In this document: in pieces, positions 32,926 through 45,148 of the stretch | Layout of the letters: the number at the start of each line of letters is the position of its first letter | Numbering within the stretch: the first letter of the stretch is position 1 | DNA from: Clostridia bacterium | Lineage (GTDB): Bacteria; Bacillota; Clostridia; Oscillospirales; Acutalibacteraceae | Assembly: GCA_030528905.1 (NCBI GenBank) | Contig: JAUMXZ010000001.1 | Span: 1-59,116, forward strand | Reading direction: 5' to 3' | Length of the DNA stretch: 59,116 nucleotides | The notes under the pieces: model-generated | Databases searched by the model: none | The model's input: only the letters and a program-made list of their open reading frames with translations | Told to the model about the DNA's origin: nothing | Made by a program: the position numbers and the translations under genes

Positions 32926-33873
32926 ATGTTAGAGATAGAGAAGCCAAATATTACTACAGAAAAGCTGTCTACCGATGGCAAGTACGGAAGATTTGTAATT
33001 GAACCTCTTGAAAGAGGCTTTGGAGCAACATTGGGAAATAGCTTAAGAAGAGTTTTGCTTTCTTCTTTGCCGGGAGTTGCCGTAACATCAATAAAAATTG
33101 ATGGAGTATTACACGAGTTTTCAACTATTCCCGGAGTTAAAGAGGATGTTACTCAAATTGTGTTAAATATAAAAGGACTTACCGCAAAGCTTGAAAATAA
33201 TGAGCCTAAAACAGTAAGAATAGATGCGGTAGGACCGGGAGTTGTTACAGCTGCAGATATACAGTGTGACAGCGAAGTGTGTATATTAAATGAGGATATG
33301 CACATAGCAACATTGGCTGATGACGGAGAACTCTCAATGGAGATAACTCTGGACAGAGGTAGAGGGTATGTTCCGGCGGAAAAGAATAAACAGCTTATGG
33401 AGGAGAATATAATAGGAGTCTTGCCAATAGACTCAATTTATACCCCGGTGCTGAAAGTAAACTTTTTCGTGGAGAATACGCGTGTAGGTCAAATTACCGA
33501 TTTTGATAAGCTTACAATAGATATTTGGACAAATGGCGTTATAAATGCACAGGAAGCAGTTTCCTATGGTGCAAAAATTTTGATAGAACATTTCTCATTG
33601 TTTGCAAACCTTTCACAAGAAGATTTCGGAACAGAAATAATGGTAGAAAGAGAAGAGCAAAGCAAGGGACTTCTTGATGTAACTATCGAAGAATTGGATC
33701 TCTCTGTAAGATCATTTAACTGTCTGAAACGAGCAGGTATAGATACTATAGAAGATCTTATAGCGAAAACAGAGGGAGATATGATGAGAGTCAGAAACTT
33801 AGGTCGTAAATCTCTTGAAGAAGTTCAGAATAAGCTTAAAGAATTAGGATTTGAGCTAAAAGAAGAAGAATAG
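32926..33873 (+). CDS. rpoA: DNA-directed RNA polymerase subunit alpha
   Basis: [30 protein letters not shown], with the C-terminal domain [17 protein letters not shown]. Confidence 0.98.
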
Positions 33874-33901
33874 AGAAAAAATAGGGTAAGGAGTGAAATA
33901 A

Positions 33902-34291
33902 ATGGCCGTAAGAAGAAAGCTTGGAAGAGATGCAGCTCATAGAACTGCAATGCTCAGAGCATTGGTAACATTCCTTTTGGAAAACGGAAAGATCGAAACA
34001 ACATTACCAAGAGCAAAAGAGGTAAGAGGACTTGCAGAAAAAATGATAACAATGGCAAAAGTAAATAATCTGCACAATAAACGTTTAGCTCTTTCTTTCA
34101 TTACAAAAGAGGCTGTTGTTAAAGATTTGTTTGATACAATAGCACCTAAATATGCGGACATTAACGGTGGATATACAAGAATTACCAAATTAGGACCTCG
34201 CAGAGGAGATGCTGCTGAAATGGCTATTCTTGAGTTGATTGATGTGAAATCCGATGCACCAGAAGCAGAGGATAAAAAAAGCAATAAATAA
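33902..34291 (+). CDS. rplQ: 50S ribosomal protein L17
   Basis: [36 protein letters not shown]...[15 protein letters not shown]. Confidence 0.98.
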
Positions 34292-34318
34292 GAAAAAGCT
34301 GAATGCTTTTAAAATATA

Positions 34319-34354
34319 GGGTATACGGATTTTTCTGTATGCCCTTTTGTTTTA
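34319..34354 (+). terminator. Rho-independent terminator after rplQ
   Basis: GGGTATAC (34319-34326) pairs with GTATGCCC (34337-34344). TTTTgTTTT follows. Confidence 0.75.
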
Positions 34355-34384
34355 TCATTTAATCGATTTGAAAGGAAAATTTTT

Positions 34385-35545
34385 ATGAATTATAATGAGG
34401 AAGCCTTAAAATTACACGAAGAAAAAAAAGGTAAAATTGAAGTATGTTCTAAAATAAAACTTGAGAATAAAGATGATTTAAGTATCGCATATACACCGGG
34501 AGTAGCAAAACCCTGCAGATGTATAGCAGAAAATCAAGATGATGTATATAAATATACGGCAAAGGGGAATTTAGTAGCAGTAGTATCAGACGGAACAGCG
34601 GTCTTAGGACTTGGAGATATAGGCCCAAAGGCTGCAATGCCGGTAATGGAAGGAAAGTCAATACTCTTTAAGGAATTTGCAAATATAGATGCGTTTCCAA
34701 TCTGCCTTGATACAAAAGATACAGAGGAAATTATAAAAACAGTTAAATACTTAGCTCCGACTTTTGGCGGCATAAATCTTGAGGATATAGCAGCTCCGCG
34801 TTGTTTTGAAATAGAGGAAAGATTAAAAAAAGAACTCGATATCCCGGTTTTCCACGACGACCAGCACGGAACAGCAATAGTCGTCTTAGCTGGACTTATA
34901 AATGCTGTAAAACTTGTGGGCAAGAAATGGGAAGATTTAACTGCAGTAATAAACGGAGCAGGAGCAGCAGGTATAGCAATTTGCAAACTTCTTATGGATT
35001 ACGGAATAGGTAATGTGATACTCTTAGACAGAAAAGGCAGCCTTGTGCCGGGAAGAGAAGCGATGAATCCGGCAAAAGAAGAAATTGCAAAAGTAACTAA
35101 TAAAAACAGGGAGTCAGGCGTACTTTCAGAAATCGTAAAGGGTAAGGATATATTTATAGGAGTGTCTTCAGCGAATGTTCTGACAAAGGATATGGTGAAG
35201 ACTATGGCAGACGACAGCATAATTTTTGCTATGGCAAACCCTGTTCCGGAGATTATGCCGGAAGATGCAAAAGAAGCCGGAGCAAGAATAATAGCTACAG
35301 GCCGTTCTGATTATGCAAATCAGATAAATAATGTTTTAGTGTTCCCCGGAATATTCAGAGGAGCATTGGACTCAAGAGCTAAAGCTATAACGCAGGAAAT
35401 GAAAATCGCAGCAGCAAAAGCTATAGCAAATATAATACAGGAAGATGAAATATCAGAAGAATATATAGTACCTAACCCACTTGATAAACGAGTAGCTAAA
35501 ATGGTATCAAAAGCAGTGTATGAAATAGGAATTACACAGAGGTAA
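34385..35545 (+). CDS. NAD(P)-dependent malic enzyme (short form)
   Basis: YTPGVA, VVSDGTAVLGLGDIGP, FGGINLEDI, FHDDQHGTA, NGAGAAG and MANPVPEI motifs. Confidence 0.92.
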   Translation: MNYNEEALKLHEEKKGKIEVCSKIKLENKDDLSIAYTPGVAKPCRCIAENQDDVYKYTAKGNLVAVVSDGTAVLGLGDIGPKAAMPVMEGKSILFKEFANIDAFPICLDTKDTEEIIKTVKYLAPTFGGINLEDIAAPRCFEIEERLKKELDIPVFHDDQHGTAIVVLAGLINAVKLVGKKWEDLTAVINGAGAAGIAICKLLMDYGIGNVILLDRKGSLVPGREAMNPAKEEIAKVTNKNRESGVLSEIVKGKDIFIGVSSANVLTKDMVKTMADDSIIFAMANPVPEIMPEDAKEAGARIIATGRSDYANQINNVLVFPGIFRGALDSRAKAITQEMKIAAAKAIANIIQEDEISEEYIVPNPLDKRVAKMVSKAVYEIGITQR

Positions 35546-35567: not shown

Positions 35568-35602
35568 ACGGCAGCAGTAATTATTACTTGCTGCCGTTTT
35601 TG
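35568..35602 (+). terminator. Rho-independent terminator after malic enzyme gene
   Basis: AACGGCAGCAGTAAT pairs with ATTACTTGCTGCCGTT (one bulge). TTTTT follows. Confidence 0.85.
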
Positions 35603-35628
35603 ATGTGCTTAATTCCTAATAAAAACTT

Positions 35629-35646
35629 TGCAAAATTATTTGCAAT
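35629..35646. promoter_or_regulatory. 18-bp palindromic operator candidate (7-4-7)
   Basis: TTGCAAA-ATTA-TTTGCAA with perfect 7-bp arms, covering the -35 hexamer and the upstream part of the spacer. Confidence 0.45.
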
Positions 35647-35657
35647 ATGGTACTATA
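35629..35657 (+). promoter_or_regulatory. Candidate sigma-A promoter of the hydrogenase-sensor operon
   Basis: TTGCAA (35629-35634), 17-nt spacer, extended -10 TGgTACTAT (35649-35657). About 40 nt upstream of the DRTGG gene. Confidence 0.5.
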
Positions 35658-35698
35658 ATATGTGTTGAAAAATAAATTTTATAGCGGAGGTTTTTAGA

Positions 35699-36049
35699 AT
35701 GACGGTACGAGAAATTGCTGAAATTCTTCACGCAGAGATCATTTTTGAGGGAGATCTTGATGCAGAAGTAAAAAATGCGTGTGGCTGTGACTTAATGAGT
35801 GATGTGTTAGCGTTTGTAAAAGAACAATCTGTTTTACTGACAGGACTTCTTAATCCGCAGGTTATCAGAACAGCTGAAATGATGGATATGCATTGTGTAA
35901 TATTCGTCAGAGGGAAAACAGTAGCACCTAATATTGTAGCATTGGCAAAACAAATGGGTATAACAGTATTATCAACAAGCTTACGCTTGTTTACAGCCTG
36001 CGGCAAACTTTATCAGGCCGGGCTGCAAGGGGGTTATGAAAACGAATGA
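35699..36049 (+). CDS. DRTGG domain protein
   Basis: 116 aa. ACGCDLMSDVLAFV...VLLTGLLNPQVIRTAEMMD...IFVRGK matches the DRTGG-domain pattern. GGAGG SD. Confidence 0.7.
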   Translation: MTVREIAEILHAEIIFEGDLDAEVKNACGCDLMSDVLAFVKEQSVLLTGLLNPQVIRTAEMMDMHCVIFVRGKTVAPNIVALAKQMGITVLSTSLRLFTACGKLYQAGLQGGYENE

Positions 36050-36470
36050 TTCTTTAAAGTTGCACTACGAGGTGTCCGGAGATGACTTTATTTCAGCCGG
36101 TATAGCATCAAGTCGTGTAAAGAATAAACTAAAACAAATAGGCTACCCCCCTATTGCTATAAGAAAAGTTGCGGTTGCGATGTATGAAGCGGAAATAAAT
36201 ATGGTAATACACGCAAACGGAGGAACTATAGATGTAGATATAAATTCGGAAAGAATAAAGGTTATACTAAAAGATATAGGTCCCGGTATTCCGGATATAG
36301 AAAAGGCAATGCAGGAGGGATTTTCAACAGCTACAGACGAAATAAGAGAGTTAGGCTTCGGTGCCGGTATGGGACTTCCTAACATAAAATCTTATACTGA
36401 TGAGTTGAAAATTGATACAGTATTAGGTCAAGGTACGACCATAGAAATAACGGTATACTGTAAAAGTTAA
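36036..36470 (+). CDS. Anti-sigma-factor-type Ser/Thr protein kinase (HATPase_c, SpoIIAB/RsbW-like)
   Basis: N-box EAEINMVIHAN, G1 DIGPGIPD, G2 GFGAGMGLPN. 144 aa. Overlaps the upstream gene by 14 nt. Confidence 0.75.
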   Translation: MKTNDSLKLHYEVSGDDFISAGIASSRVKNKLKQIGYPPIAIRKVAVAMYEAEINMVIHANGGTIDVDINSERIKVILKDIGPGIPDIEKAMQEGFSTATDEIRELGFGAGMGLPNIKSYTDELKIDTVLGQGTTIEITVYCKS

Positions 36471-36493
36471 TAGTAAAATGGGAGTTGAAAAAA

Positions 36494-37804
36494 ATGACTA
36501 AATTTTTCCATTCCGTTATGTTAGAAAAAAATAAATGTGTTGGGTGTACAAACTGTGTTAAACGTTGTCCGACTCAAGCAATAAGAGTAAGAAATGGAAA
36601 AGCAGTTATACATTCAAAAAGATGTATTGACTGTGGCGAATGTATAAGAGTGTGTCCGCATAAAGCTAAAAAAGCAGCAACTAAAAAGATATCAATAATA
36701 AAAGATTTTGAATATACCGTTGCAATTCCAGACCCTTCGCTTTTTGGACAATTTAATAATTTAAAAGATATAAATGTGGTACTTACAGCAATTAAAAAAT
36801 TAGGTTTTAATTTTGTGTATGAGGCTTCAAGAGGAGCAGAATTGATAATGGATTCAATAAAAAAGCTCCTTGAGGAAAACAGGATAAGAACTCCTATTAT
36901 AAGCTCAGCTTGTCCTGCTATAGTAAGACTTATAAGACTTAGGTTTCCTGATTTATGCGATAATGTTCTTGAACTTGAAGCGCCGATGGAAGTAACAGCA
37001 AAGCTTGCAAAGGATGAGATTTCAGAAAAATATGGGATACCATTTGAGAAAATAAAGGCAGTCTTTATAGCACCTTGTCCTGCTAAAGTCAGCGCTGTGG
37101 CAGCACCGCTTGCAAAAGATAAATCTTGGGTGGATGCGGTTATTTCAATAGGCGATGTATATCCACTTTTGATAAGCGAGATGTCAAAGCTTTCAAAAGA
37201 TGATATAGAAGATATAGCAAAGTCCGGCTCTGAAGGTATCGGCTGGGGGGTAAGCTCAGCAGCCGCTCGTACATTTTTTAACGAGAAATATCTTGCGGCT
37301 GACGGAATAGAAAACGCAATAAGAATACTTGAGGAGTTAGAAGAATTCAGAATAAGAGGAATAGACTTCATAGAACTCTCAGCCTGTTCAGCCGGCTGTG
37401 TGGGCGGAGTTATGTGTGTTGAGAATGCGTATGTAGCAAAGGCTAAAATACACAAGCTAATGAAGGACCTGCCGCTGTTTAAAAATAGTGTAGACGGCGA
37501 AATACCTGACTTTTTAAGATGGGAAAAGGAACTTGAGTTTGAACCTGTTTTAAAGCTGTCAGAAGATGTGGGAGAAGCGATAGCTCTTATGGACAAGATG
37601 GATAAACTGTATGAGTCGCTGCCGGGTATGGATTGCGGATCGTGCGGAGCACCAACCTGCAGAGCTTTTGCAGAAGATGTCGTAATGGGCAGAGCTAAGC
37701 AAAATAATTGTATATATATTTTAAAAGATCATATAGAATATGTCATAGATACGCTTGAAGATACTTTGAAAAAACTCAAGGGGGTTACATTTGATGACTC
37801 TTAA
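36494..37804 (+). CDS. [FeFe]-hydrogenase-like (H-domain) putative sensory iron-sulfur protein
   Basis: N-terminal 2x[4Fe-4S] ferredoxin motifs (CVGCTNCVKRCP, CIDCGECIRVCP). Modified H-cluster motifs SSACPA (36902-36919), APCPAK (37070-37087) and ELSACSAGCVGGV (37373-37411). C-terminal CGSCGAPTCRAF Fe-S motif. ATG 36494 is preferred over the ORF-track TTG 36485. Confidence 0.75.
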   Translation: MTKFFHSVMLEKNKCVGCTNCVKRCPTQAIRVRNGKAVIHSKRCIDCGECIRVCPHKAKKAATKKISIIKDFEYTVAIPDPSLFGQFNNLKDINVVLTAIKKLGFNFVYEASRGAELIMDSIKKLLEENRIRTPIISSACPAIVRLIRLRFPDLCDNVLELEAPMEVTAKLAKDEISEKYGIPFEKIKAVFIAPCPAKVSAVAAPLAKDKSWVDAVISIGDVYPLLISEMSKLSKDDIEDIAKSGSEGIGWGVSSAAARTFFNEKYLAADGIENAIRILEELEEFRIRGIDFIELSACSAGCVGGVMCVENAYVAKAKIHKLMKDLPLFKNSVDGEIPDFLRWEKELEFEPVLKLSEDVGEAIALMDKMDKLYESLPGMDCGSCGAPTCRAFAEDVVMGRAKQNNCIYILKDHIEYVIDTLEDTLKKLKGVTFDDS

Positions 37805-38129
37805 TGATATAAAAGAAAAATTATCACTTGAAGTAATAGCAGGAGAAGATGGCCTGTCAAATGAAGTAAGCGGCTGTTATATTGGGGACTTACTAAGCTG
37901 GGTGCTGGGAAAGGCAAACTCAGGCGATGTTTTAGTAAGCGTTATGGGAAATTCAAATGCAGTAGCAGTCTGTTCAATGATAGATTTAGCGGGATTGATA
38001 TTAACAGAGAATTCACCGCTTGATGAAGATGCAAGAAAAAAAGCCGATGCATTTTCAATACCGGTTCTGACAACACCGCTTAATCATTACCAATTTGCAA
38101 ATGCTTTTTCAAAAATTTTCAATCAATAA
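37794..38129 (+). CDS. DRTGG domain protein (second copy)
   Basis: 111 aa, with the same overall pattern as 35699-36049 (GCYIGDLLSWVL...VLVSVMGNSNAV...LILTEN). Overlaps the upstream stop. TTG 37791 is an alternative start. Confidence 0.6.
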   Translation: MTLNDIKEKLSLEVIAGEDGLSNEVSGCYIGDLLSWVLGKANSGDVLVSVMGNSNAVAVCSMIDLAGLILTENSPLDEDARKKADAFSIPVLTTPLNHYQFANAFSKIFNQ

Positions 38130-38180
38130 GCTGATGATATCAAGGTTTTAATTTAAAAAGTTTATAAAATTGGTGGTAAT

Positions 38181-39173
38181 ATGGAAAAAAGTTATGTGTT
38201 GGATTGTGTTATGGGGTTTATAACGGGAGATTGCTTCGGGGCACAGCTTGACGGAGTGGATGTAAGAAAAACAGGAACAGGCCCGATTTATAAGCCGCAG
38301 GAGAAGAATGTTTATGGATTTCCGTTTGGAACTTTTACATCTGTTTCTTCTCTTATGCTGTGTTGCGCAAAGAGCCTTGCAAATGGTGTAGACTGCGATG
38401 ATATAATGGAGAATTTTTCAAAGTGGTATACTTTTGGTTATATGAGTCCTGCTAAAAGAGCTTTTGCTGTTGATAATGTGATATTAAGGTCAATTATAAA
38501 TTACAAAAAGGGTATTCGTCCGGCTGTAGAATGTGGAAAGACTAATGATTATGACAGTATAAACTCCGTTTTAAACTATATTTTACCGCTTGCCTTTGTA
38601 GTAAAAGATCTGTCGCAAAAGGATAAATTTGATACTATAAAGGAAGTCTGCAGGCTTACAAGCAGCAAAAAAGATTCACATATTGCAGCATCGCTGTTTG
38701 TGTTGTTTATCATAAACCTGCTTGAAAATAGAGATAAAAATAAAGTAAAAATCTTTAACGATACGCTAAAAGAGATATATATGTATTTTTTAAAAGATGA
38801 GGAGTATAAATACAGTTTATCTAAATGCGCAAAAATATTTTATGCAGCGGTAGAAAACAAGAACAAAGATATACTATATGAATTAGATACGCTAAGAGAC
38901 GCACTTGAAGTGGCGCTTAAATCCTTTTTTGAGCGTGATGGCGCATTTTTATCTATAGTTGACTGTGCAGGTTACGGCGGAGATTCAGCCTTAGCAACGG
39001 CTCTTGTAGGAGCTATGTGTGCAGCGTACAATGATGAAGATATGGATATGATTATTGATTGGCAGGAATATATAAATAAGATTCCGGAGATAGATGAAAT
39101 TTGCAACACCATTTACAGTAAATATATAGACAAGAATGACAAGCAGAACAAAGAACAAGAGGCACAGATATGA
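38181..39173 (+). CDS. ADP-ribosylglycohydrolase-fold protein with degenerate metal-binding motifs
   Basis: N-terminal GFITGDCFG (GDALG-like). GTFTSVSSL occupies the place of GxxTDDTxM, and GGDSALATALVGAM the place of GGDxDTxxAxxGA. The stop overlaps the next gene's ATG (ATGA). Confidence 0.6.
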   Translation: MEKSYVLDCVMGFITGDCFGAQLDGVDVRKTGTGPIYKPQEKNVYGFPFGTFTSVSSLMLCCAKSLANGVDCDDIMENFSKWYTFGYMSPAKRAFAVDNVILRSIINYKKGIRPAVECGKTNDYDSINSVLNYILPLAFVVKDLSQKDKFDTIKEVCRLTSSKKDSHIAASLFVLFIINLLENRDKNKVKIFNDTLKEIYMYFLKDEEYKYSLSKCAKIFYAAVENKNKDILYELDTLRDALEVALKSFFERDGAFLSIVDCAGYGGDSALATALVGAMCAAYNDEDMDMIIDWQEYINKIPEIDEICNTIYSKYIDKNDKQNKEQEAQI

Positions 39174-39892
39174 AGCTTTTTTACGATTTTCATATACATT
39201 CAGCACTTTCTCCGTGTGCAGAAAATGATATGACACCGAGCAATATTATAAATATGTCAATTATAAATGAACTTGATGTGATAGCCTTAACAGACCATAA
39301 TTGTTCTAAGAACTGTAAAACACTTATGAATCTTGGCAGAGAAAACGATATTCTTGTAATTGCGGGAATGGAGCTTACAACACAGGAAGAAGTACATATG
39401 GTTATGCTGTTTAAAGAGTTATATTCAGCCGAAAAATTTTCAGAATTTGTACAAAGCAGAATAATGAAAGTTCCAAACAGACCTGAAATTTTCGGAGATC
39501 AGCTGATAATGGACGAAAAAGACAACATAATCGGAGTACAGGAAAACTGGCTTGTGCCGGCAACAGATATATCAATAGACAAAGCTTATGATTTAGCCAA
39601 AGAATATGACGCAGCAATATTCCCGGCACATATCAACAGGGCTTCCCACAGTATTATATCAAACCTTGGTGTGTTTCCTGATCAGCCTGATTTTAGCTGT
39701 GTCGAGGTGAGTAAAACAGCAGACGTAAACAGCTTGATAAAAAGTTATCCGCTGCTTTCAAAAAAGTTAATCCTGCACGACTCTGATGCTCATAGATTAG
39801 AAGATATGCTACTTGATTTTCATAGTATAGAAGTTGAAGAAAAAAATGAAAAATCTGTTATAGATGCTATAAACAGGGGCCTTGGTTTGTAA
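39170..39892 (+). CDS. PHP-domain metal-dependent phosphoesterase
   Basis: FYDFHIHSALSPCA, IALTDHN, GMELT, PAHINR and LHDSDAH are PHP motif contexts. Confidence 0.8.
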   Translation: MKLFYDFHIHSALSPCAENDMTPSNIINMSIINELDVIALTDHNCSKNCKTLMNLGRENDILVIAGMELTTQEEVHMVMLFKELYSAEKFSEFVQSRIMKVPNRPEIFGDQLIMDEKDNIIGVQENWLVPATDISIDKAYDLAKEYDAAIFPAHINRASHSIISNLGVFPDQPDFSCVEVSKTADVNSLIKSYPLLSKKLILHDSDAHRLEDMLLDFHSIEVEEKNEKSVIDAINRGLGL

Positions 39893-40079
39893 AGTGCAGA
39901 CGAATTTAAAAAAATGTGGGTTTATTATATTTTATTGTGGATCTTGGCGTGAATATAATGTATAATATATGTGTAAAGTAGCGGATATGTTCAATATTAA
40001 CAGTTAAATATCTTATGTGTATATTGCCTGTATTGTTATTTTACGAATTTAAAAATCCTTAATCAGAGGGGGAGAAATA

Positions 40080-40577
40080 ATGTTAAAACGTATCAGTAAG
40101 ATTGCGTTTAAGCAGACTGAAGAACAAAAAAAAGAACTTTTAGATTACATCAATGCCCAAAAAGGTAAGCCGGGAGCTTTGATGCCGATTATGCAAAAAG
40201 CTCAGGATATTTATGGATATTTACCGGAAGAAGTACAGCGTATAATAGCTGATGAGTTAGGGATATCAACAGAGGAAGTTTTTGGCGTATCAACTTTCTA
40301 TTCCCAATTTGCACTTTCTCCAAAGGGTAAGTATAATATCTCAATTTGCCTTGGTACAGCTTGTTATGTAAAAGGCTCAGGAGATATTTTAAATAAAGTC
40401 CAGGAAATCTTGAAAATTATGCCGGAAGAATGTAGTGAAGACGGCCAATTCTCACTCACAGCCTGCCGCTGCGTGGGAGCTTGTGGTCTTGCTCCGGTCT
40501 TGATGGTTAATGACGAAGTTTATGGACGCTTAACAGTAAATGATGTTGAGGGTATTTTAAATAAATATAAGAATTAG
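40080..40577 (+). CDS. hydC: NuoE-like [2Fe-2S] subunit of NAD(H)-dependent [FeFe] hydrogenase
   Basis: ALMPIMQKAQDIYGYL...ISICLGTACYVKG...LTACRCVGACGLAPV. GGGGGAG SD. Confidence 0.9.
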   Translation: MLKRISKIAFKQTEEQKKELLDYINAQKGKPGALMPIMQKAQDIYGYLPEEVQRIIADELGISTEEVFGVSTFYSQFALSPKGKYNISICLGTACYVKGSGDILNKVQEILKIMPEECSEDGQFSLTACRCVGACGLAPVLMVNDEVYGRLTVNDVEGILNKYKN

Positions 40578-40579
40578 CT

Positions 40580-41107
40580 ATGAGAGAATTGTCGCTTAAT
40601 GTTTTAGATATCGTTCAAAACAGCATCAGCGCAAAGTCAACTATCGTTAATATTGAAGTGAACTTTTATGATAAAAATAAAATGCGAATATCAATAACCG
40701 ATGATGGCTGCGGAATGAATCAAGAACAGGTAATGAAAGTTATAGACCCATTTTACACAACAAGAAAAACAAGAAAAGTAGGCTTGGGAATACCTCTTTT
40801 TAAAATGGCAGCTGAGCTTACAGGCGGAAGTCTTGTGATACGATCGTTACCCGAAAAAGGTACACATATAAGTGCTGAGTTCGTAACAGACAGCATAGAT
40901 ATGACGCCTTTGGGAGATATGAATTCAACAATATTGCTCTTGGTTCGTTGTAATCCTGATGTAGACTTTGTTTACTCATTAACAAAAGATAATGATAAAA
41001 GAGAATTTAATACAAAAGAAATAAGAGAAATTTTGGGAGAAGTTCCTCTTGATCATCCCGATGTTCTTGAATGGATAGACGGATATCTGAAAGAACAATT
41101 TGCTTAA
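40580..41107 (+). CDS. Histidine-kinase-like ATPase (HATPase_c only) encoded inside the hydrogenase operon
   Basis: N-box LNVLDIVQNSISA, G1 DDGCGM, G2 VGLGIPLF. No DHp/His box or TM segments seen. Confidence 0.75.
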   Translation: MRELSLNVLDIVQNSISAKSTIVNIEVNFYDKNKMRISITDDGCGMNQEQVMKVIDPFYTTRKTRKVGLGIPLFKMAAELTGGSLVIRSLPEKGTHISAEFVTDSIDMTPLGDMNSTILLLVRCNPDVDFVYSLTKDNDKREFNTKEIREILGEVPLDHPDVLEWIDGYLKEQFA

Positions 41108-41141
41108 AGCAAAATATGTAAAGAAACAGGGGGTAAAATTT

Positions 41142-41510
41142 ATGAAATCATTGGAAGAACTCAGAGCAATAAGAGATAGAGCCCGTGCAGGAGTAGACTT
41201 GAGAAAAGAACATCAAAACGATGTAAGAGTCCTCGTAGGTATGGCAACCTGTGGAATAGCTGCAGGAGCAAGACCGGTACTCAACGCTTTTGTAGAGGAA
41301 ATAAACAAGAGAAATCTGAAAAATGTAGTTGTAACTCAAACAGGATGTATTGGTATATGCCAGTTTGAACCGGTAGTAGAAATAATAGAGCCGGGAAAAG
41401 AAAAAGTGACATATGTGCATATGACTCCGGAAAAGGCAGTCAGAATAGTAAACGATCACTTAGTTAATGCAAATGTTGTAGCCGAATTTACAATCGGTGC
41501 AAATTCATAA
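41142..41510 (+). CDS. Thioredoxin-like [2Fe-2S] ferredoxin
   Basis: MATCGIAAGA...TGCIGICQFEP pattern. ATG 41142 follows GGGGG; the ORF-track start 41100 overlaps the upstream gene. Confidence 0.8.
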   Translation: MKSLEELRAIRDRARAGVDLRKEHQNDVRVLVGMATCGIAAGARPVLNAFVEEINKRNLKNVVVTQTGCIGICQFEPVVEIIEPGKEKVTYVHMTPEKAVRIVNDHLVNANVVAEFTIGANS

Positions 41511-41522
41511 GGAGGAAGTTTA

Positions 41523-43310
41523 ATGTTTCGTTCCAATGTTTTGGTTTGCGGAGGTACAGGCTGTACATCCTCACACAGTGATAAAATAGCAGATAAATTA
41601 GAAGAAGAGATTAAGGCTAATGGCCTTGAGTTTGAAGTCAATGTTATAAGAACAGGCTGCTTTGGCTTGTGCGAATTAGGCCCTATAGTAGTTGTATACC
41701 CGGAGGGAAGCTTCTACAGTCGCGTTACAGTCGAGGATATTCCTGAACTGGTAAGTGAGCATCTTTTAAAAGGCCGTATCCTGAAAAGATTATTATTCCA
41801 GGAAACTTTAGCAGAAGATACAATAAAATCTTTAGCAGAAACAGACTTTTATAAAAAACAAAAGAGAATTGCACTTCATAACTGCGGCGTTATCAACCCG
41901 GAAGTTATCGAAGAATATATAGCAATGGACGGCTATCAGGCCTTAGGTAAGGTTTTAACAGAAATGACACCTGAGCAGGTAATCCAGGTTATAAAAGACT
42001 CAGGACTCAGAGGCCGTGGCGGCGGCGGATTCCCAACAGGAGTAAAATGGGAGCTTGCAGCTAAACCTCAGTCTGACCAAAAATATGTATGCTGTAATGC
42101 TGACGAAGGCGACCCGGGCGCATTTATGGACAGATCTCTGCTCGAAGGCGACCCACACTCAATCTTAGAGGCTATGGCTATAGCAGGATATGCAATCGGA
42201 GCTTCACAAGGATATATCTATGTAAGAGCTGAATATCCAATAGCTGTAAAGAGATTGGAAATAGCAATTAAACAAGCCAGAGAATATGGCTTGTTAGGCG
42301 AAAATATCTTTGATACAGGCTTTAATTTTGATATAGATTTAAGACTCGGAGCAGGCGCATTTGTTTGCGGCGAGGAAACAGCATTGTTGACTTCAATCGA
42401 GGGCAAAAGAGGTGAGCCGCATCCAAGACCACCATTCCCGGCAATCAAGGGCTTGTTCGGCAAACCAACTATCTTAAACAATGTTGAAACTTATGCTAAT
42501 ATTACCCAGATTATCTTAAACGGTGCAGATTGGTTCAAATCAATGGGTACTGAAAAATCAAAAGGTACAAAAGTTTTCGCACTCGGCGGAAAAATTAAAC
42601 ATACAGGTCTTGTTGAAGTACCAATGGGTACAACACTTCGCGAGATCGTCGAGGAAATAGGTGGAGGTATTCCAAACGGAAAGAAATTTAAGGCTGCTCA
42701 AACAGGTGGTCCTTCCGGCGGATGTATCTCATATGAAAACTTTGATATTCCGATAGATTATAATAACCTTATAGATATAGGCTCTATGATGGGCTCAGGC
42801 GGACTTATCGTAATGGATGAAACTTCCTGTATGGTAGATATCGCTAAGTTCTTCCTTGAGTTTACAGTCGATGAATCCTGCGGTAAATGTACACCTTGCC
42901 GCGTAGGTACAAAACGTTTGCTTGAAATACTCACAAAAATTACCGAAGGTAAAGCAACAATGGAAGACTTAGATAAATTAGAGTCACTTTGCTACTATAT
43001 CAAAGAAAATTCACTCTGCGGATTAGGCCAAACTGCTCCAAACCCTGTGTTGTCAACACTGAAATGCTTTAAAGATGAATATCTTGCACATATCGTTGAC
43101 AAGAAATGTCCGGCAGGTGTATGTAAATCACTGTTAAGCTATGTAATCGATCCAGCAAAATGTAAAGGTTGCTCACTCTGTTCAAGAGTTTGTCCGGTTT
43201 CCGCAATATCCGGTGAAATTAAAAAGCCCTTTGTTATTGATCAGTCAAAATGTATTAAGTGCGGTACTTGTATGGATAAATGTAAGTTTAATGCAATAGA
43301 AAAGAAATAG
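41523..43310 (+). CDS. hydB: NuoF-like flavoprotein subunit of [FeFe] hydrogenase (NAD(H)/FMN, Fe-S)
   Basis: N-terminal 2Fe-2S domain (CGGTGCTSS...TGCFGLCELGP), GLRGRGGGGFPTG, CNADEGDPGAF, SCGKCTPCR, and C-terminal 2x CxxCxxCxxxCP. Confidence 0.93.
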   Translation: MFRSNVLVCGGTGCTSSHSDKIADKLEEEIKANGLEFEVNVIRTGCFGLCELGPIVVVYPEGSFYSRVTVEDIPELVSEHLLKGRILKRLLFQETLAEDTIKSLAETDFYKKQKRIALHNCGVINPEVIEEYIAMDGYQALGKVLTEMTPEQVIQVIKDSGLRGRGGGGFPTGVKWELAAKPQSDQKYVCCNADEGDPGAFMDRSLLEGDPHSILEAMAIAGYAIGASQGYIYVRAEYPIAVKRLEIAIKQAREYGLLGENIFDTGFNFDIDLRLGAGAFVCGEETALLTSIEGKRGEPHPRPPFPAIKGLFGKPTILNNVETYANITQIILNGADWFKSMGTEKSKGTKVFALGGKIKHTGLVEVPMGTTLREIVEEIGGGIPNGKKFKAAQTGGPSGGCISYENFDIPIDYNNLIDIGSMMGSGGLIVMDETSCMVDIAKFFLEFTVDESCGKCTPCRVGTKRLLEILTKITEGKATMEDLDKLESLCYYIKENSLCGLGQTAPNPVLSTLKCFKDEYLAHIVDKKCPAGVCKSLLSYVIDPAKCKGCSLCSRVCPVSAISGEIKKPFVIDQSKCIKCGTCMDKCKFNAIEKK

Positions 43311-43399
43311 TTTAAAACTTATAAATAAGGGAAAATATAACTATAAAATTATAACAAAAGGGGGATAAAAAGCACGAGTGCTAAATTTTAAGCAGTGCT

Positions 43400-45148
43400 A
43401 TGAATGATATGGAAAAAGTTAATATAAAAATTAACGGTATGGAGTTGTCAGTTCCCGCAGGCGTTACAATTCTTGAGGCTGCAAGAATGGCAAATATAGA
43501 GATACCAACTCTTTGCTATATGAAAGAGAAAAATGAAATAGGCGCTTGCCGTATGTGTGTTGTTGAAGTGATAGGAGCAAGAGCTTTAGTCGCAGCTTGT
43601 GTTTATCCGGTCTTTGAGGGAATGCAGGTGTTTACAAATACCGAGAAAGTTCGTAAATCAAGAAAAACTACATTACAACTGTTGCTTTCAAATCACGATA
43701 AAAAATGCTTATCGTGTACAAGAAGCGGAAACTGTGAACTGCAAAAGCTGTGTAATGATTACGGAGTGGATGATGAGAACTACTTTGATGGCGAACAGCC
43801 AAAGTATGAGCTTGACTTGTCAACACCACACCTTGTAAGAGATAATAATAAATGTATTCTATGCCGCAGATGCGTTGCTGCTTGTAAAGAGCAATTTGTA
43901 GCAGTTATAGGTACAAATAACCGCGGCTTTGATTCAAGTATCGGCTGTGCATTTGAGAAAGACTTAAACGATGTACCGTGTATATCCTGCGGACAGTGTA
44001 TAGTAAACTGCCCAACAGGAGCATTAAGAGAAAAAGATCAATGCGATGAGGTTTTAGCAGCTATTGCAGATCCTGAAAAATTTGTTATAGTACAAACAGC
44101 ACCGTCAATAAAAGCAACATTAGGCGAGTGTTTCGGTATGCCGATAGGAACAAATGTAGAAGGTAAGATGGTAGCAGCATTAAAACGCCTTAACTTTGAC
44201 AAAGTGTTTAACACAGACTTCTCAGCTGACTTGACAATAGTCGAGGAAGCAAATGAGTTAGTAGAAAGAGTTCAAAACGGCGGAGTGTTACCGATGATTA
44301 CTTCGTGTTCACCGGGCTGGGTAAAATTCTGCGAGTTTTATTATCCGGAGCTAATACCACACTTATCAAGCTGTAAATCTCCACAGCAAATGGCCGGAGC
44401 AATATTTAAAACCTGGTATGCTCAAAAGAACAATATCGATCCAAAAAATATTGTATCAGTAAGTATTATGCCGTGTACAGCAAAGAAATTTGAGATAGGA
44501 AGAGATGACCAGAGTGCTGCAGGTCTTCCTGATGTTGATATAGTTCTCACAACAAGAGAGCTTGCAAGACTTATAAAACGTGCAGGATTAGACTTTGTAA
44601 ATCTTCCGGACGAGGATTTTGATCCGACATTAGGACTTGGCACAGGCGCCGGTACAATCTTCGGAGCTACAGGTGGAGTTATGGAGGCAGCATTAAGAAC
44701 TGCTGTAGATACTCTTACAGGCGAAGATGTAAAAGAAGTAGTTTACAATGAAGTAAGAGGTACTGATGGCATTAAAGAGGCAGTTTATAAGGGCGTTGGC
44801 GGCTTGGATGTAAAGGTAGCAGTTGCAAGCGGACTTAGCAATGCAAAAGTTTTAATGGATAAAATCAAAGACGGAACAGCAGATTATCAGTTTATCGAGA
44901 TTATGTGCTGTCCGGGCGGCTGCGTAAACGGCGGCGGACAACCAATTCAACCGGCAAGTGTGAGAAGCTTTACAGACCTCAAGGCTCTAAGAGCAAAGGC
45001 TCTTTATGACCAGGATGCTGCTAAAGAATTAAGAAAATCACATCAAAGCCCAATTATGGAAAGACTTTACAAAGAGTTTTTAGGTAAGCCCGGAAGCGAA
45101 AAGGCTCACCATATTCTGCACACATCCTATGTAAAGAGAGAAAAATAA
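43400..45148 (+). CDS. hydA: [FeFe] hydrogenase catalytic subunit (HydABC/group A3-type architecture)
   Basis: N-terminal 2Fe-2S, HxxxCxxCxxxxxC and 2x[4Fe-4S] motifs. H-cluster motifs TSCSPGW, MPCTAKKFE and EIMCCPGGCVNGGGQP. C-terminal small-subunit-like tail. Confidence 0.93.
   Translation: MNDMEKVNIKINGMELSVPAGVTILEAARMANIEIPTLCYMKEKNEIGACRMCVVEVIGARALVAACVYPVFEGMQVFTNTEKVRKSRKTTLQLLLSNHDKKCLSCTRSGNCELQKLCNDYGVDDENYFDGEQPKYELDLSTPHLVRDNNKCILCRRCVAACKEQFVAVIGTNNRGFDSSIGCAFEKDLNDVPCISCGQCIVNCPTGALREKDQCDEVLAAIADPEKFVIVQTAPSIKATLGECFGMPIGTNVEGKMVAALKRLNFDKVFNTDFSADLTIVEEANELVERVQNGGVLPMITSCSPGWVKFCEFYYPELIPHLSSCKSPQQMAGAIFKTWYAQKNNIDPKNIVSVSIMPCTAKKFEIGRDDQSAAGLPDVDIVLTTRELARLIKRAGLDFVNLPDEDFDPTLGLGTGAGTIFGATGGVMEAALRTAVDTLTGEDVKEVVYNEVRGTDGIKEAVYKGVGGLDVKVAVASGLSNAKVLMDKIKDGTADYQFIEIMCCPGGCVNGGGQPIQPASVRSFTDLKALRAKALYDQDAAKELRKSHQSPIMERLYKEFLGKPGSEKAHHILHTSYVKREK

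What the first reader, a model, noticed from the sequence alone, without database searches (positions are those of the whole stretch)
35699..39892. Six-gene putative H2-sensing partner-switch-like operon upstream of the HydABC hydrogenase
The genes are tightly packed or overlapping, which indicates one operon:
- DRTGG protein
- SpoIIAB/RsbW-type kinase (14-nt overlap with the preceding gene)
- H-cluster-like Fe-S protein
- second DRTGG protein (overlap)
- ARH-fold protein
- PHP phosphoesterase (ATGA overlap)

The operon lies directly 5' of hydC-HATPase-Fd-hydB-hydA.

The parts list resembles a partner-switching module. It has a sensor (the hydrogenase-like protein), a Ser/Thr kinase of the anti-sigma type, small single-domain proteins that could be the phospho-acceptors (DRTGG in place of STAS), and a phosphoesterase (PHP in place of PP2C).

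I know of no characterised mechanism for this gene set. Similar DRTGG/HATPase/hydrogenase-like/PHP neighbourhoods exist next to bifurcating hydrogenases in thermophilic Clostridia but are only annotated by domain.
Basis: inference. Interest (0 to 1): 0.68.

Follow-up and report, generated by a model that had tools for sequence, protein, structure and literature searches.

The report
Hydrogen-sensor kinase cassette beside HydABC hydrogenase
Next to a hydrogen-producing enzyme operon sits a widely conserved five-gene set in which a hydrogenase-like sensor, a small protein kinase-like ATPase and a DRTGG protein evidently work as one unit, which points to the long-sought signalling partners of the "group D" sensory hydrogenases.

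Summary
The six tightly packed genes are real, and all the domain calls are correct. The conserved unit, however, has five genes: DRTGG1, a SpoIIAB-type GHKL kinase, a Group D (M2e, TamHydS-like) [FeFe]-hydrogenase "HydS", DRTGG2, and a PHP phosphoesterase.

- **ARH gene:** it is a lineage-specific insertion, absent from all 80 related genomes examined. It has lost most metal-binding residues and evolves under relaxed constraint.
- **Linkage to the hydrogenase operon:** the cassette lies beside hydC-HATPase-Fd-hydB-hydA in about 90% of decidable loci, either co-directional or divergent. It occurs in Bacillota, Planctomycetota and Hydrogenedentes.
- **New evidence from gene fusions:** 23 metagenome contigs encode DRTGG1 and the kinase as one protein. 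More than 100 protein clusters encode the kinase and HydS as one protein. So DRTGG1, the kinase and HydS act as one physical sensor-kinase unit. This bears on a question the hydrogenase literature still called open in 2026, namely what HydS's interaction partners are.
  - No STAS, PP2C or sigma-factor gene is present.
  - The nearest solved relatives of the PHP protein are nucleotide and nucleic-acid phosphoesterases, not protein phosphatases.
  - DRTGG is known only as a dimerisation module.
  - An invariant D-x-x-S motif in both DRTGG paralogues is a candidate phospho-site, but this is untested.

The parts
35574..35594 (+). Terminator-like hairpin after the malic-enzyme gene. It marks the upstream boundary of the cassette.
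   Evidence: Consensus scan and sequence. This is a pattern match only.
35628..35659 (+). Probable cassette promoter: TTGCAA (35628-33), 17 nt, TACTAT (35651-56), with TATAAT at 35654-59. A perfect palindrome TTGCAAA-ATTA-TTTGCAA (35628-45) overlaps it.
   Evidence: Sequence. The palindrome is an exact match, and near-matches number 6 against 1.07 expected. It is not conserved in relatives. Its function is inferred.
35699..36049 (+). DRTGG1, a 116-aa single-domain DRTGG protein. Invariant residues include D31, S34, D35, T48, R57, T58, R71 and K73.
   Evidence: - Pfam PF07085.
- Conserved in 79/80 genomes.
- Invariant columns also hold across 133 representatives clustered at 50% identity.
- Fused to the kinase in 23 contigs and in P0184.
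36036..36470 (+). SpoIIAB/RsbW-type GHKL ATPase/Ser-kinase-like protein (HATP_A, 144 aa), with intact N, G1, G2 and G3 boxes.
   Evidence: - Pfam HATPase_c_2.
- NCBIfam SpoIIAB hit at 4e-15, below that model's cut-off.
- PDB profile search: SpoIIAB 1til 6e-11 and RsbW 6m36.
- Motif conservation across 162 sequences.
- The homologous domain in a modelled fusion superposes on SpoIIAB with TM 0.84.
36494..37804 (+). Group D (M2e) [FeFe]-hydrogenase HydS, 436 aa (the ORF is open from TTG 36485).
- Two N-terminal [4Fe-4S] motifs.
- H-domain with all four H-cluster Cys (C143, C198, C301, C305, in 439-aa numbering).
- C299->A, M353->A and M497->S (CpI numbering).
- C-terminal Cx2Cx4Cx16C motif.
- No PAS domain.
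   Evidence: Pfam, alignment A1, alignment to a group A hydrogenase, and literature definitions.
37794..38129 (+). DRTGG2, 111 aa, a paralogue of DRTGG1. It keeps the D-L-L-S motif (D33, S36), overlaps the HydS stop codon, and evolves about twice as fast as DRTGG1.
   Evidence: Pfam. hhalign of DRTGG1 against DRTGG2 gives 97.8% probability. Conservation is shown, and evolutionary rates.
38181..39173 (+). ARH-fold protein (330 aa). It is a lineage-specific insertion between DRTGG2 and PHP. Its binuclear metal site is degenerate (SDD->TSV; GGDTDT->GGDSAL). It is probably not part of the conserved mechanism.
   Evidence: - Pfam PF03747.
- 0/80 genomes carry it.
- The only relative found is 96% identical, in the same layout.
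- Alignment to Lmo0067 (8za7) and 2cwc.
- dN/dS is 0.24, against 0-0.03 for the neighbouring genes.
39170..39892 (+). PHP-family metal-dependent phosphoesterase (240 aa). All PHP metal ligands are conserved, plus a subfamily motif c-L-S-P-C after the HxH motif.
   Evidence: Pfam and conservation. Nearest solved relatives are RNase AM 7ug9, 3e0f, Cv1693 2yb1, EndoQ, TM0559 and PolC PHP.
39893..40079 (+). 187-nt spacer between PHP and hydC. It contains no terminator-like hairpin. A promoter-like site lies at 39997-40025.
   Evidence: Scan and sequence. In 18/54 relatives this spacer carries a Rex-like box; the window has none.
40080..45148 (+). Adjacent presumed target operon: hydC (NuoE-like), HATP_B (orphan histidine-kinase-type CA domain), Fd2 (thioredoxin-like 2Fe-2S), hydB (NuoF-like) and hydA (group A [FeFe]-hydrogenase).
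   Evidence: ORFs, Pfam and NCBIfam, HATP_B against KinB 3d36, and linkage statistics.

Best explanation
The locus encodes a conserved H2 (or H2-linked redox) sensing module built around a Group D [FeFe]-hydrogenase.

**Shown**
- DRTGG1, a SpoIIAB-type GHKL ATPase/kinase and HydS belong together as one physical unit. In other lineages they are encoded as DRTGG1~kinase or kinase~HydS single polypeptides.
- The set almost always travels with DRTGG2 and a catalytically intact PHP phosphoesterase, and lies next to a HydABC-type operon.

**Inferred**
- H2 oxidation at the H-cluster reduces the N-terminal [4Fe-4S] clusters of HydS. TamHydS work shows that these clusters respond to H2 and that the C-terminal cluster does not.
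- In the fusions the GHKL domain is attached directly to this N-terminal ferredoxin domain by a linker of about 10-15 residues. The redox or conformational state of that domain would therefore gate the kinase's ATP-dependent activity.
- DRTGG1 sits N-terminal to the ATPase domain, as a DHp domain does in a histidine kinase. It would act as the kinase's dimerisation or acceptor module.
- The invariant Ser in the D-x-x-S motif shared by DRTGG1 and DRTGG2 is the most likely phospho-acceptor, and DRTGG2 would be the releasable paralogue.
- PHP would reset the system.
- The output adjusts HydABC, in trans, through its expression or its activity. No DNA-binding or sigma-factor gene is linked to the cassette.
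- The ARH gene is a recent add-on, probably enzymatically dead, and not required for the mechanism.
For: **Architecture and Group D features**
- Described.
- TamHydS is a low-activity, CO-tolerant hydrogenase encoded upstream of a bifurcating hydrogenase. Its signal path is unknown. Its N-terminal cluster, not its C-terminal cluster, is reduced by H2, and its partners are still sought.

**Conservation of the cassette**
- The five-gene order holds in about 80 GTDB species, out of at least 590 matching genomes.
- hydABC is adjacent in 56 of 61 decidable loci: 37 downstream on the same strand, 16 upstream and divergent, and 3 in other arrangements.
- In the metagenome set, about 40 of 43 decidable loci show the same linkage.

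**Fusions**
- P0184 is a DRTGG1~HATPase_c_2 fusion.
- DRTGG1~kinase occurs as one ORF in 23 contigs. Kinase~HydS occurs as one ORF in 10-19 contigs.
- The best 120 protein clusters (all that were listed), mostly 513-570 aa, combine HATPase_c_2, Fer4, Fe_hyd_lg_C and FeS domains. They come from Planctomycetota/Phycisphaerae, Hydrogenedentes and others. They sit in the same cassette context.
- An AlphaFold2 model of one fusion has pLDDT 89 and pTM 0.74. Its N-domain superposes on SpoIIAB with TM 0.84 and rmsd 2.1 Å.

**Sequence conservation**
- Kinase ATP-binding boxes and PHP metal ligands are conserved across about 126-162 sequences.
- The D-x-x-S Ser is invariant in 80/80 DRTGG1 and 80/80 DRTGG2 sequences, and in 130/132 diverse representatives.
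- DRTGG1 and the kinase evolve as slowly as the structural hydrogenase subunits.

**Action in trans**
Five loci carry the cassette without a hyd operon nearby, among unrelated housekeeping genes.
Against: - There are no experimental data for any step beyond TamHydS biochemistry.
- No output domain (HTH, sigma factor or receiver) is linked in the window or in the 80 genomes.
- DRTGG is known only as a dimerisation module. No phosphorylated DRTGG has been reported in the 18 papers that mention the domain.
- PHP's nearest solved relatives act on nucleotides or nucleic acids, not phosphoproteins.
- Rex-like operators upstream of hydC in a third of relatives show that hydABC transcription already has another redox input.
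- One lineage (L164) lacks DRTGG2 altogether.
- pTM 0.74 does not prove a fixed kinase-HydS interface. The model gave no contact information.
Confidence: 0.5

Rival explanations
1. This is the classical partner-switch. The GHKL protein is an anti-sigma factor that holds an unlinked sigma factor. Free DRTGG proteins act as anti-anti-sigma antagonists that the kinase phosphorylates. PHP is the phosphoprotein phosphatase. H2 sensed by HydS shifts the balance and so switches hydABC transcription.
For: - The kinase is closest to SpoIIAB and RsbW by sequence and by fold.
- There are two small single-domain paralogues with an invariant Ser.
- A metal phosphoesterase is always present.
- Group C sensory hydrogenases are proposed to signal through Ser/Thr kinase and phosphatase pairs.
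Against: - No STAS, PP2C or sigma-factor gene lies in or near the cassette in 160 loci.
- DRTGG1 is covalently fused to the kinase in many lineages, and the kinase to HydS. This is awkward for proteins that must exchange partners.
- PHP is not detectably related to the PHP-type protein phosphatases CpsB and YwqE.
Confidence: 0.15
2. This is a nucleotide-based rather than a phosphoprotein-based module. The GHKL domain acts as an H2-gated ATP-binding or ATP-hydrolysing switch. The DRTGG proteins are dimerising or nucleotide-responsive adaptors, as in CBS-pyrophosphatases. PHP hydrolyses a small nucleotide (such as pAp, a dinucleoside polyphosphate or a cyclic or oligonucleotide) or an RNA, for instance the hyd mRNA. 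Under this model, regulation is metabolic or post-transcriptional.
For: - PHP's best solved relatives are RNase AM (a 5'-3' exoribonuclease), the 3',5'-bisphosphate nucleotidase Cv1693, EndoQ and PolC-PHP.
- Its best NCBIfam hit is the nuclease-associated TrlF PHP domain.
- Among CBS-PPases, only those that contain a DRTGG domain respond to diadenosine polyphosphates.
- This lineage tolerated the insertion of an ADP-ribose-type (ARH) fold next to PHP.
Against: - The PDB matches cover mainly the N-terminal 80-100 residues of PHP, which are generic metal motifs.
- No nucleotide cyclase or synthetase is linked to the cassette.
- The conserved polar residues of DRTGG1 are compatible with either phosphate-ligand or phospho-acceptor roles.
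Confidence: 0.2
3. The cassette is not a signalling system. Its proteins are accessory or alternative subunits of the HydABC complex, or assembly and repair factors for it. HydS would serve as a low-rate catalytic or electron-entry module, and the GHKL protein as an Hsp90/MutL-like ATPase chaperone.
For: - The cassette is tightly linked to hydABC, and the window has no terminator before hydC.
- Maturase genes (hydE/G/F) lie directly upstream in L163.
- GHKL proteins include chaperones (general knowledge).
Against: - The cassette is divergently transcribed in 16 loci and unlinked in 5.
- HydS lacks the proton-transfer Cys and the flanking Met residues. Its characterised homologue has sensor-like kinetics.
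- The GHKL domain is specifically SpoIIAB-like, not Hsp90- or MutL-like.
Confidence: 0.1

Closest known systems
TamHydS, the Group D (M2e) putative sensory [FeFe]-hydrogenase of Thermoanaerobacter mathranii
   Same: - Same domain plan: 2x[4Fe-4S], H-domain, C-terminal Cx2Cx4Cx16C cluster, no PAS.
- The proton-transfer Cys is lost and M353/M497 are replaced.
[quoted passage not shown]
   Different: - The active-site substitutions differ. The window has M353->A and M497->S; TamHydS has S and L.
- The papers describe only the isolated enzyme. They name the neighbours as an 'HK-like ATPase and AraC regulator' and do not mention DRTGG, PHP or the fusions.
- I could not align the sequence directly to TamHydS.
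Group C sensory [FeFe]-hydrogenases (TmHydS; R. albus HydS; Thermoanaerobacterium HfsB) with Ser/Thr kinase and PP2C partners
   Same: - An H-cluster sensor carrying the same extra C-terminal FeS domain.
- Encoded with a kinase and a phosphatase next to catalytic hydrogenase genes.
- Genetic evidence for a regulatory role.
   Different: Group C proteins carry a fused PAS domain and use a PP2C/SpoIIE-type phosphatase. Here there is no PAS. A separately encoded DRTGG2 follows the FeS domain, and the phosphoesterase is of the PHP type.
Partner-switching modules (SpoIIAB-SpoIIAA-SpoIIE; RsbW-RsbV-RsbU/P)
   Same: A small GHKL Ser-kinase of the anti-sigma type, small single-domain partner proteins, and a dedicated phosphoesterase.
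   Different: There is no STAS domain, no PP2C and no linked sigma factor. The kinase is fused to its sensor or to DRTGG1 in many lineages.
Histidine-kinase-linked H2 sensors (HydS-HisKA-HATPase fusions, Group C1-like; the regulatory [NiFe] HoxBC-HoxJ-HoxA system)
   Same: A hydrogenase-type sensor is coupled directly to a GHKL ATPase domain. Such HydS-HisKA-HATPase genes sit beside the Group D cassette in L163 and L164.
   Different: - Those systems have a DHp/HisKA domain with a phospho-His, and cognate receivers.
- The window's kinase has no HisKA and there is no receiver.
- The domain order is reversed: the kinase is N-terminal to HydS, and DRTGG1 occupies the position of DHp.
DRTGG domains of CBS-pyrophosphatase, Pta and AF1212; the N-terminal domain of HPr kinase
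   Same: Same Pfam family above threshold, with weak profile matches to 3l2b and 2ioj. In HprK/P, a related domain also precedes a Ser kinase (weak Hpr_kinase_N hits).
   Different: - Here the domains are stand-alone proteins or fused to a GHKL kinase.
- They carry their own invariant polar set (D31, S34, D35, R57, R71, K73).
- They lack the eponymous D-R motif.
- The known role elsewhere is dimer contacts.

Membership tests
Group D / M2e [FeFe]-hydrogenase (HydS) | H-domain with the four H-cluster-binding cysteines (motifs L1-L3) | tested here: met
   C143 (SSACP), C198 (APCPAK), and C301 and C305 (ELSACSAGCVGG). These are invariant in alignment A1 and align to CbA5H.
Group D / M2e [FeFe]-hydrogenase (HydS) | The proton-transfer Cys (C299) and the flanking M353/M497 are not conserved | tested here: met
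   A142 replaces the first Cys of TSCCP, A196 replaces M353, and S299 replaces M497. This matches the criterion stated in Land 2020.
Group D / M2e [FeFe]-hydrogenase (HydS) | Two N-terminal [4Fe-4S] motifs and an extra C-terminal four-Cys cluster, with no PAS domain | tested here: met
   Fer4 x2 and PF04060 FeS at residues 379-411, with no PAS hit. The C-terminal motif is C384-x2-C387-x4-C392-x16-C409.
Group D / M2e [FeFe]-hydrogenase (HydS) | Phylogenetic placement with TamHydS | not tested
The assignment rests on architecture, motifs and gene context.
Group C sensory [FeFe]-hydrogenase | C-terminal PAS domain fused to HydS | tested here: not met
   No PAS hit was found in the 439-aa protein or in any cassette gene.
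Partner-switching module (SpoIIAB/RsbW type) | GHKL anti-sigma-type Ser kinase | tested here: met
   HATPase_c_2. SpoIIAB 1til at 6e-11 and RsbW 6m36 at 7e-5. Fold TM 0.84 to SpoIIAB for the homologous domain. N, G1 and G2 boxes are conserved. Kinase activity itself was not tested.
Partner-switching module (SpoIIAB/RsbW type) | STAS-domain antagonist with a phosphorylatable Ser | tested here: not met
   No STAS domain is present. The small proteins are DRTGG. They do carry an invariant Ser, but its phosphorylation is unknown.
Partner-switching module (SpoIIAB/RsbW type) | PP2C (SpoIIE/RsbU) phosphatase | tested here: not met
   The phosphoesterase is PHP (PF02811), not PP2C.
Partner-switching module (SpoIIAB/RsbW type) | Cognate sigma factor or other switched target encoded with the module | tested here: not met
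   No conserved additional gene family occurs in 10-kb flanks of the 80 genomes. There is none in the window between rplQ and rpoB.
Two-component histidine kinase | DHp/HisKA domain with a phospho-His, plus a receiver domain | tested here: not met
   Neither GHKL protein has a HisKA domain, and the locus has no Response_reg. A receiver gene is found only in Planctomycete-type loci.
PHP metal-dependent phosphoesterase | Conserved His/Asp/Glu metal ligands (HxH, DH, E, H, H, DxH) | tested here: met
   H8, H10, D42/H43, E68, H76, H154, D206 and H208 are invariant or nearly so in 126 sequences.
PHP-type protein phosphatase (CpsB/YwqE) | Detectable sequence relationship to CpsB/YwqE | tested here: not met
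   A profile search of the PDB at E<=10 lists RNase AM, Cv1693, EndoQ, TM0559 and PolC PHP, but no CpsB or YwqE entry. This says nothing direct about the substrate.
Active ADP-ribosylhydrolase (ARH/DraG) | ARH fold | tested here: met
   PF03747 at E=1e-23. Lmo0067 (8za7) at E=3.5e-27 over residues 4-312.
Active ADP-ribosylhydrolase (ARH/DraG) | Asp pair (xDDx) and C-terminal D-x-D-T that bind the two metal ions | tested here: not met
   The query has T-S-V where Lmo0067 and 2cwc have S/T-D-D. It has GGD-S-A-L where they have GGD-T-D-T. The role of these residues is from general knowledge of ARH1, ARH3 and DraG.
DRTGG domain family (PF07085) | Match above the Pfam gathering threshold | tested here: met
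   DRTGG1 scores 32.8 bits and DRTGG2 31.3 bits against a cut-off of 25.2. The two are paralogues.

The most novel reading that the evidence does not exclude
The cassette is a previously undescribed class of signal transducer. A SpoIIAB-like GHKL Ser kinase is wired directly to the N-terminal FeS domain of an H-cluster sensor. DRTGG domains serve as a new kind of phospho-acceptor and dimerisation module, playing the role that DHp or STAS plays elsewhere. A PHP enzyme acts as the eraser. The system would report H2 partial pressure to the electron-bifurcating hydrogenase in gut Clostridia, Planctomycetota, Hydrogenedentes and others.
Probability: 0.3. Interest if true: 0.85.

Novelty: new variant of a known kind. 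Interest (0 to 1): 0.66.

Why it matters
H2 partial pressure controls how fermenting anaerobes split their electrons between H2, ethanol, lactate and acids. These include abundant gut Oscillospirales and biofuel strains. How cells sense H2 through [FeFe]-type sensors is still unsolved.

For Group D sensors, the field's latest paper (2026) ends by calling for identification of the interaction partners. The conserved cassette supplies named candidates: the GHKL kinase, DRTGG1, DRTGG2 and PHP. The natural DRTGG1~kinase and kinase~HydS fusions add ready-made single-chain constructs for biochemistry and cryo-EM.

If DRTGG domains prove to be phospho-acceptors, a widespread domain of unknown function would gain a role. 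The locus could also provide parts for engineered H2 biosensors and for redirecting fermentation, as hfsB deletions already do for ethanol yield.

Tried and rejected
- **Fe-S or redox-thiol site in DRTGG1.** Cys28, Cys66 and Cys101 are invariant in the 80 Oscillospirales genomes. Across 133 diverse representatives they are only 42-67% conserved, so I rejected this as a general feature.
- **Mirror-tree co-evolution among the ten proteins.** All pairs correlate similarly (partial r 0.37-0.66), so it does not show who binds whom.
- **A conserved operator upstream of DRTGG1.** No shared palindrome was found in 76 relatives. The window's perfect TTGCAAA-ATTA-TTTGCAA is unique to it.
- **Rex control of the window's operons.** There is no Rex-like box with 3 or fewer mismatches upstream of DRTGG1 or hydC in the window, although relatives have them before hydC.
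- **A linked transcription factor or sigma factor.** All-against-all clustering of flank ORFs found none. The recurrent flank genes are serA/serC-like. A stand-alone receiver occurs only in Planctomycete-type loci.
- **AlphaFold2 of the window's PHP without an alignment.** It failed (pLDDT 32.8), so I made no fold comparison. Alignments built from fetched loci are not accepted by the structure tool.
- **Homologues of ARH.** The word-indexed search found only a 96%-identical sequence, and no literature exists on its best PDB match, Lmo0067.
- **RNA elements.** Rfam found nothing in the region and there are no tRNAs.
- **Reading Zheng et al. 2014.** The paper is not held in the library.
- **ARH-PHP as a functional pair.** I considered this because of the ATGA overlap and rejected it as conserved biology. 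PHP follows DRTGG2 directly everywhere else.

Full report

Yes.

| Gene | Coordinates | Domain evidence |
|---|---|---|
| DRTGG1 | 35699-36049 | PF07085 |
| Kinase (HATP_A) | 36036-36470 | HATPase_c_2; best NCBIfam hit is anti-sigma F factor SpoIIAB |
| Hydrogenase-like protein | to 37804 | two Fer4 motifs, Fe_hyd_lg_C, C-terminal PF04060 FeS |
| DRTGG2 | to 38129 | PF07085 |
| ARH | 38181-39173 | ADP_ribosyl_GH |
| PHP | 39170-39892 | PF02811 |

- The 14-nt overlap between DRTGG1 and the kinase, and the ATGA overlap between ARH and PHP, are correct.
- Ribosome-binding sites, and the gene calls in a 98-99% identical contig, place the HydS start at ATG 36494 and the DRTGG2 start at ATG 37794.
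- A terminator-like hairpin (35574-35594) follows the upstream malic-enzyme gene. A promoter-like TTGCAA-17-TACTAT lies at 35628-35656.
- No terminator-like structure separates PHP from hydC.
- hydC, an orphan HATPase, a 2Fe-2S ferredoxin, hydB and hydA follow at 40080-45148.

**2. What is the central protein?**

It is a Group D (M2e) [FeFe]-hydrogenase of the TamHydS type, not merely "H-cluster-like".

- All four H-cluster cysteines are present.
- The proton-relay Cys of TSCCP is Ala, M353 is Ala and M497 is Ser.
- There are two N-terminal [4Fe-4S] motifs and a C-terminal Cx2Cx4Cx16C motif, and no PAS domain.
- These are the features Land et al. used to define the putative sensory M2e/Group D class. 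[quoted passage not shown]
- The 2026 follow-up shows that H2 reduces an N-terminal cluster but not the C-terminal one. It closes by saying the interaction partners must be identified.
- Older genome papers list the neighbourhood only by annotation, for Thermoanaerobacter and Halanaerobium.
- Only 18 papers in the searchable library mention DRTGG. Just two of them also contain the word hydrogenase, and only in passing.

**3. Conservation of the gene set.**

A scan of GTDB species genomes found at least 590 genomes with a relative. I analysed the best 80, mostly gut and rumen Oscillospirales at 49-57% HydS identity.

- Profile searches on their ORFs recover DRTGG1-kinase-HydS-DRTGG2-PHP in that order in essentially every locus the contig allows.
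- Among 61 decidable loci, the position of the hydC-HATPase-Fd-hydB-hydA operon is as follows:

| Position of the hyd operon | Loci |
|---|---|
| Directly downstream, same strand | 37 |
| Directly upstream, divergent | 16 |
| Nearby, in other arrangements | 3 |
| Absent within 3-9 kb | 5 |

- In the five loci without it, the neighbours are unrelated housekeeping genes.
- No other gene family is conserved in the flanks. In particular there is no transcription factor or sigma factor.
- The cassette is therefore a separable unit that usually, but not always, sits beside hydABC.

**4. The ARH gene is not part of the conserved system.**

- It has no counterpart in any of the 80 genomes.
- Elsewhere PHP follows DRTGG2 directly. 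The stop-to-stop distance has a median of 724 nt, against 1763 nt here.
- The only relative found among 5.8 billion proteins by the word-indexed search is 96% identical. It sits in the same layout in two contigs of what is evidently the same species.
- Aligned to its best solved relatives (Lmo0067 8za7, E=3.5e-27; T. thermophilus 2cwc), the Asp-Asp pair is replaced by Ser-Val and the C-terminal GGD-T-D-T by GGD-S-A-L. From general knowledge of ARH1, ARH3 and DraG, these residues bind the two catalytic metal ions.
- Between the window and the sister contig, its dN/dS is 0.24 (13 synonymous and 13 non-synonymous changes). Every neighbouring gene scores 0-0.03.
- I conclude it is a recent insertion, probably catalytically inactive and under relaxed constraint.

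**5. New evidence: natural fusions.**

- An exhaustive HMMER search with DRTGG1 found 643 cluster representatives at E<=1e-10. Among them is P0184, a 270-aa protein with DRTGG1 followed by HATPase_c_2.
- I used P0184 to fetch metagenome contigs from sediments, wetlands and bioreactors. That gave 80 further loci with the same cassette and, where the flank allows, hyd genes downstream in about 40 of 43.
- In 23 of these loci, DRTGG1 and the kinase lie in a single stop-free ORF. In 10 (strict score thresholds) to 19 (domain co-occurrence), the kinase and HydS lie in a single ORF.
- Searching the protein database with one kinase~HydS fusion (L138) returned 120 listed clusters, mostly 513-570 aa, nearly all of which carry HATPase_c_2, Fer4, Fe_hyd_lg_C and FeS domains.
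  - NCBI assigns them to Planctomycetota/Phycisphaerae and Candidatus Hydrogenedentes, among others.
  - JGI describes them as [quoted passage not shown].
- Their genomic contexts keep the cassette: DRTGG1, kinase~HydS, a 116-aa DRTGG2-position gene, PHP, HATP_B, hydC, Fd, hydB, hydA. One lineage has a minimal DRTGG1, kinase~HydS, PHP set.
- An AlphaFold2 model of a fusion, built with a 58-sequence alignment, has mean pLDDT 89 and pTM 0.74, with a short low-confidence linker at residues 140-150.
- Its N-terminal domain superposes on SpoIIAB (1til, 1l0o; TM 0.84, rmsd about 2 Å) and the rest on [FeFe]-hydrogenases.
- Recurrent fusions of neighbours are strong evidence that DRTGG1, the kinase and HydS act as one physical unit.
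- I saw no fusion involving DRTGG2 or PHP in 160 loci.

**6. What the sequences say about each step.**

- *Kinase.* The N box (E..N), G1 (DxGxG), G2 (GFGAGMGLPN) and G3 (GxGT) are conserved across 162 sequences. So is an N-terminal DF..AG.AS motif. ATP binding is therefore very likely retained.
- *DRTGG1.*
  - It is as conserved as the structural hydrogenase subunits (mean distance 0.41). DRTGG2 and PHP evolve about twice as fast (0.77-0.79).
  - DRTGG1 and DRTGG2 are paralogues (hhalign 97.8%).
  - They share an invariant D-[LM]-[LM]-S motif: 80/80 each and 130/132 in diverse DRTGG1 representatives.
  - DRTGG1 additionally keeps T48, R57, T58, R71 and K73.
  - This Ser is the obvious candidate phospho-acceptor, but part of the motif may be a generic DRTGG feature.
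  - The only documented role of DRTGG domains is DRTGG-DRTGG' dimer contacts.
- *PHP.*
  - All metal ligands are conserved, so it should be an active phosphoesterase.
  - Its closest solved relatives are RNase AM, a Bifidobacterium PHP esterase, the 3',5'-bisphosphate nucleotidase Cv1693, EndoQ, TM0559 and PolC PHP domains.
  - The PHP-type protein tyrosine phosphatases do not appear even at E<=10.
  - A structure-based check failed because the single-sequence model was unusable.

**7. Most likely mechanism.**

*Shown:* a Group D sensor-type hydrogenase, a SpoIIAB-type GHKL protein and DRTGG1 form one functional unit. That unit is accompanied by DRTGG2 and an intact PHP esterase and is genomically tied to HydABC.

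*Inferred:*
- In the fusions the kinase is joined by only 10-15 residues to the N-terminal ferredoxin domain of HydS. That is the part of TamHydS that H2 reduces. I therefore propose that the redox or conformational state of this domain gates the kinase.
- DRTGG1 precedes the ATPase domain as DHp does in histidine kinases. I propose it is the kinase's dimerisation or acceptor module.
- DRTGG2 would be the related, releasable partner, and PHP the reset enzyme.
- The output acts in trans on HydABC expression or activity.

I put about 0.5 on this overall picture. Within it, I put about 0.3 on Ser phosphorylation of DRTGG and about 0.25 on PHP being a phosphoprotein phosphatase.

*Rivals:*
- a true partner-switch with an unlinked sigma factor (0.15);
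- a nucleotide- or RNA-directed role for PHP, with DRTGG proteins as adaptors (0.2);
- a non-signalling accessory or assembly role (0.1).

Rex-like operators lie immediately upstream of hydC in 18 of 54 relatives (2.1 expected by shuffling). The window has none. They show that hydABC has its own promoter and a separate NADH input. This is compatible with the cassette supplying the H2 input or acting post-translationally.

**8. Comparison with known systems, and novelty.**

- The protein is a member of Group D HydS by every feature I could test. Phylogenetic placement against TamHydS was not tested.
- The cassette works like the Group C systems, which combine HydS-PAS with a Ser/Thr kinase and PP2C. 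It also works like histidine-kinase-linked H2 sensors, examples of which sit beside the cassette in L163 and L164.
- It is not a member of the partner-switching family (STAS, PP2C and sigma factor are absent). It is not a two-component system either (no HisKA, no receiver).
- I class it as a new variant of a known kind. H2-sensing by sensory hydrogenases is an existing concept, and the neighbourhood had been seen. The five-gene module, its breadth, the fusions and the DRTGG/PHP transducer set are not described in the literature I could search.

**9. Verdict.**

It is right about a sensor-kinase module tied to hydABC. It is wrong to include ARH. It is unproven, and somewhat weakened, on "DRTGG = STAS" and "PHP = PP2C".
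- Interest is moderately high because the finding turns an explicitly stated open question into concrete experiments.

Noticed in passing
window 35628-35645: A perfect 7-4-7 palindrome, TTGCAAA-ATTA-TTTGCAA, overlaps the -35 element of the probable cassette promoter. It has Rex-box geometry but 4 mismatches to the clostridial Rex consensus. Near-matches in the window number 6 against 1.07 expected. It is not conserved upstream of DRTGG1 in relatives.
   Followed up: partly
window 40580-41510: A second orphan GHKL gene lies inside the hyd operon, next to a thioredoxin-like 2Fe-2S ferredoxin. It is of the histidine-kinase CA type (best PDB match KinB 3d36) and is unrelated in sequence to the cassette kinase. 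It is conserved in 54 related genomes. In Planctomycetota loci (L163, L165) its start overlaps the PHP stop by 8 nt, so it may belong to the regulatory set.
   Followed up: partly
L002, L005, L012, L050, L052 and others, 30-235 nt upstream of hydC: Rex-like boxes (TTGTKAWNNNNWTMACAA, up to 2 mismatches) occur upstream of hydC in 18 of 54 relatives, against 2.1 expected. Several are perfect or one-off. None is present in the window.
   Followed up: partly
L163 55-3643; L164 11836-15738: HydS-HisKA-HATPase_c fusion proteins (667-671 aa) are followed by receiver and hybrid-kinase genes. They sit in the same gene clusters as the Group D cassette. These organisms therefore carry a canonical two-component H2 sensor alongside it.
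   Followed up: no
L129 and L131 (metagenome contigs): Two cassettes lie in tandem. One has the DRTGG1~kinase fusion and the other has separate genes.
   Followed up: no
L138 12708-15821; L163 14427-17480; L165 14528-17566: HydB (NuoF-like) is fused to a GltD-like Pyr_redox_2 domain (1012-1037 aa) in the lineages that carry the kinase~HydS fusion.
   Followed up: no
window 32926-35545 and 45440-49270: The malic-enzyme gene, the cassette and the hyd operon are wedged between rpoA-rplQ (the end of the ribosomal alpha operon) and rpoB. This is an unusual placement for rpoB relative to the S10-spc-alpha region. An S10 leader RNA lies at 18574-18653.
   Followed up: no
window 38181-39173: The ARH-fold protein is close to an orphan. 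The only relative found in the word-indexed 5.8-billion-protein search is 96% identical. The best solved match is the uncharacterised Listeria Lmo0067 (8za7), for which no paper was found.
   Followed up: partly
L163 19473-19889; L164 4849-5229; L165 19678-20082: A stand-alone receiver-domain gene (126-138 aa) flanks the hyd operon in the Planctomycete-type loci. It is absent from the window, from the 80 Oscillospirales genomes, and from nearly all other metagenome loci.
   Followed up: yes
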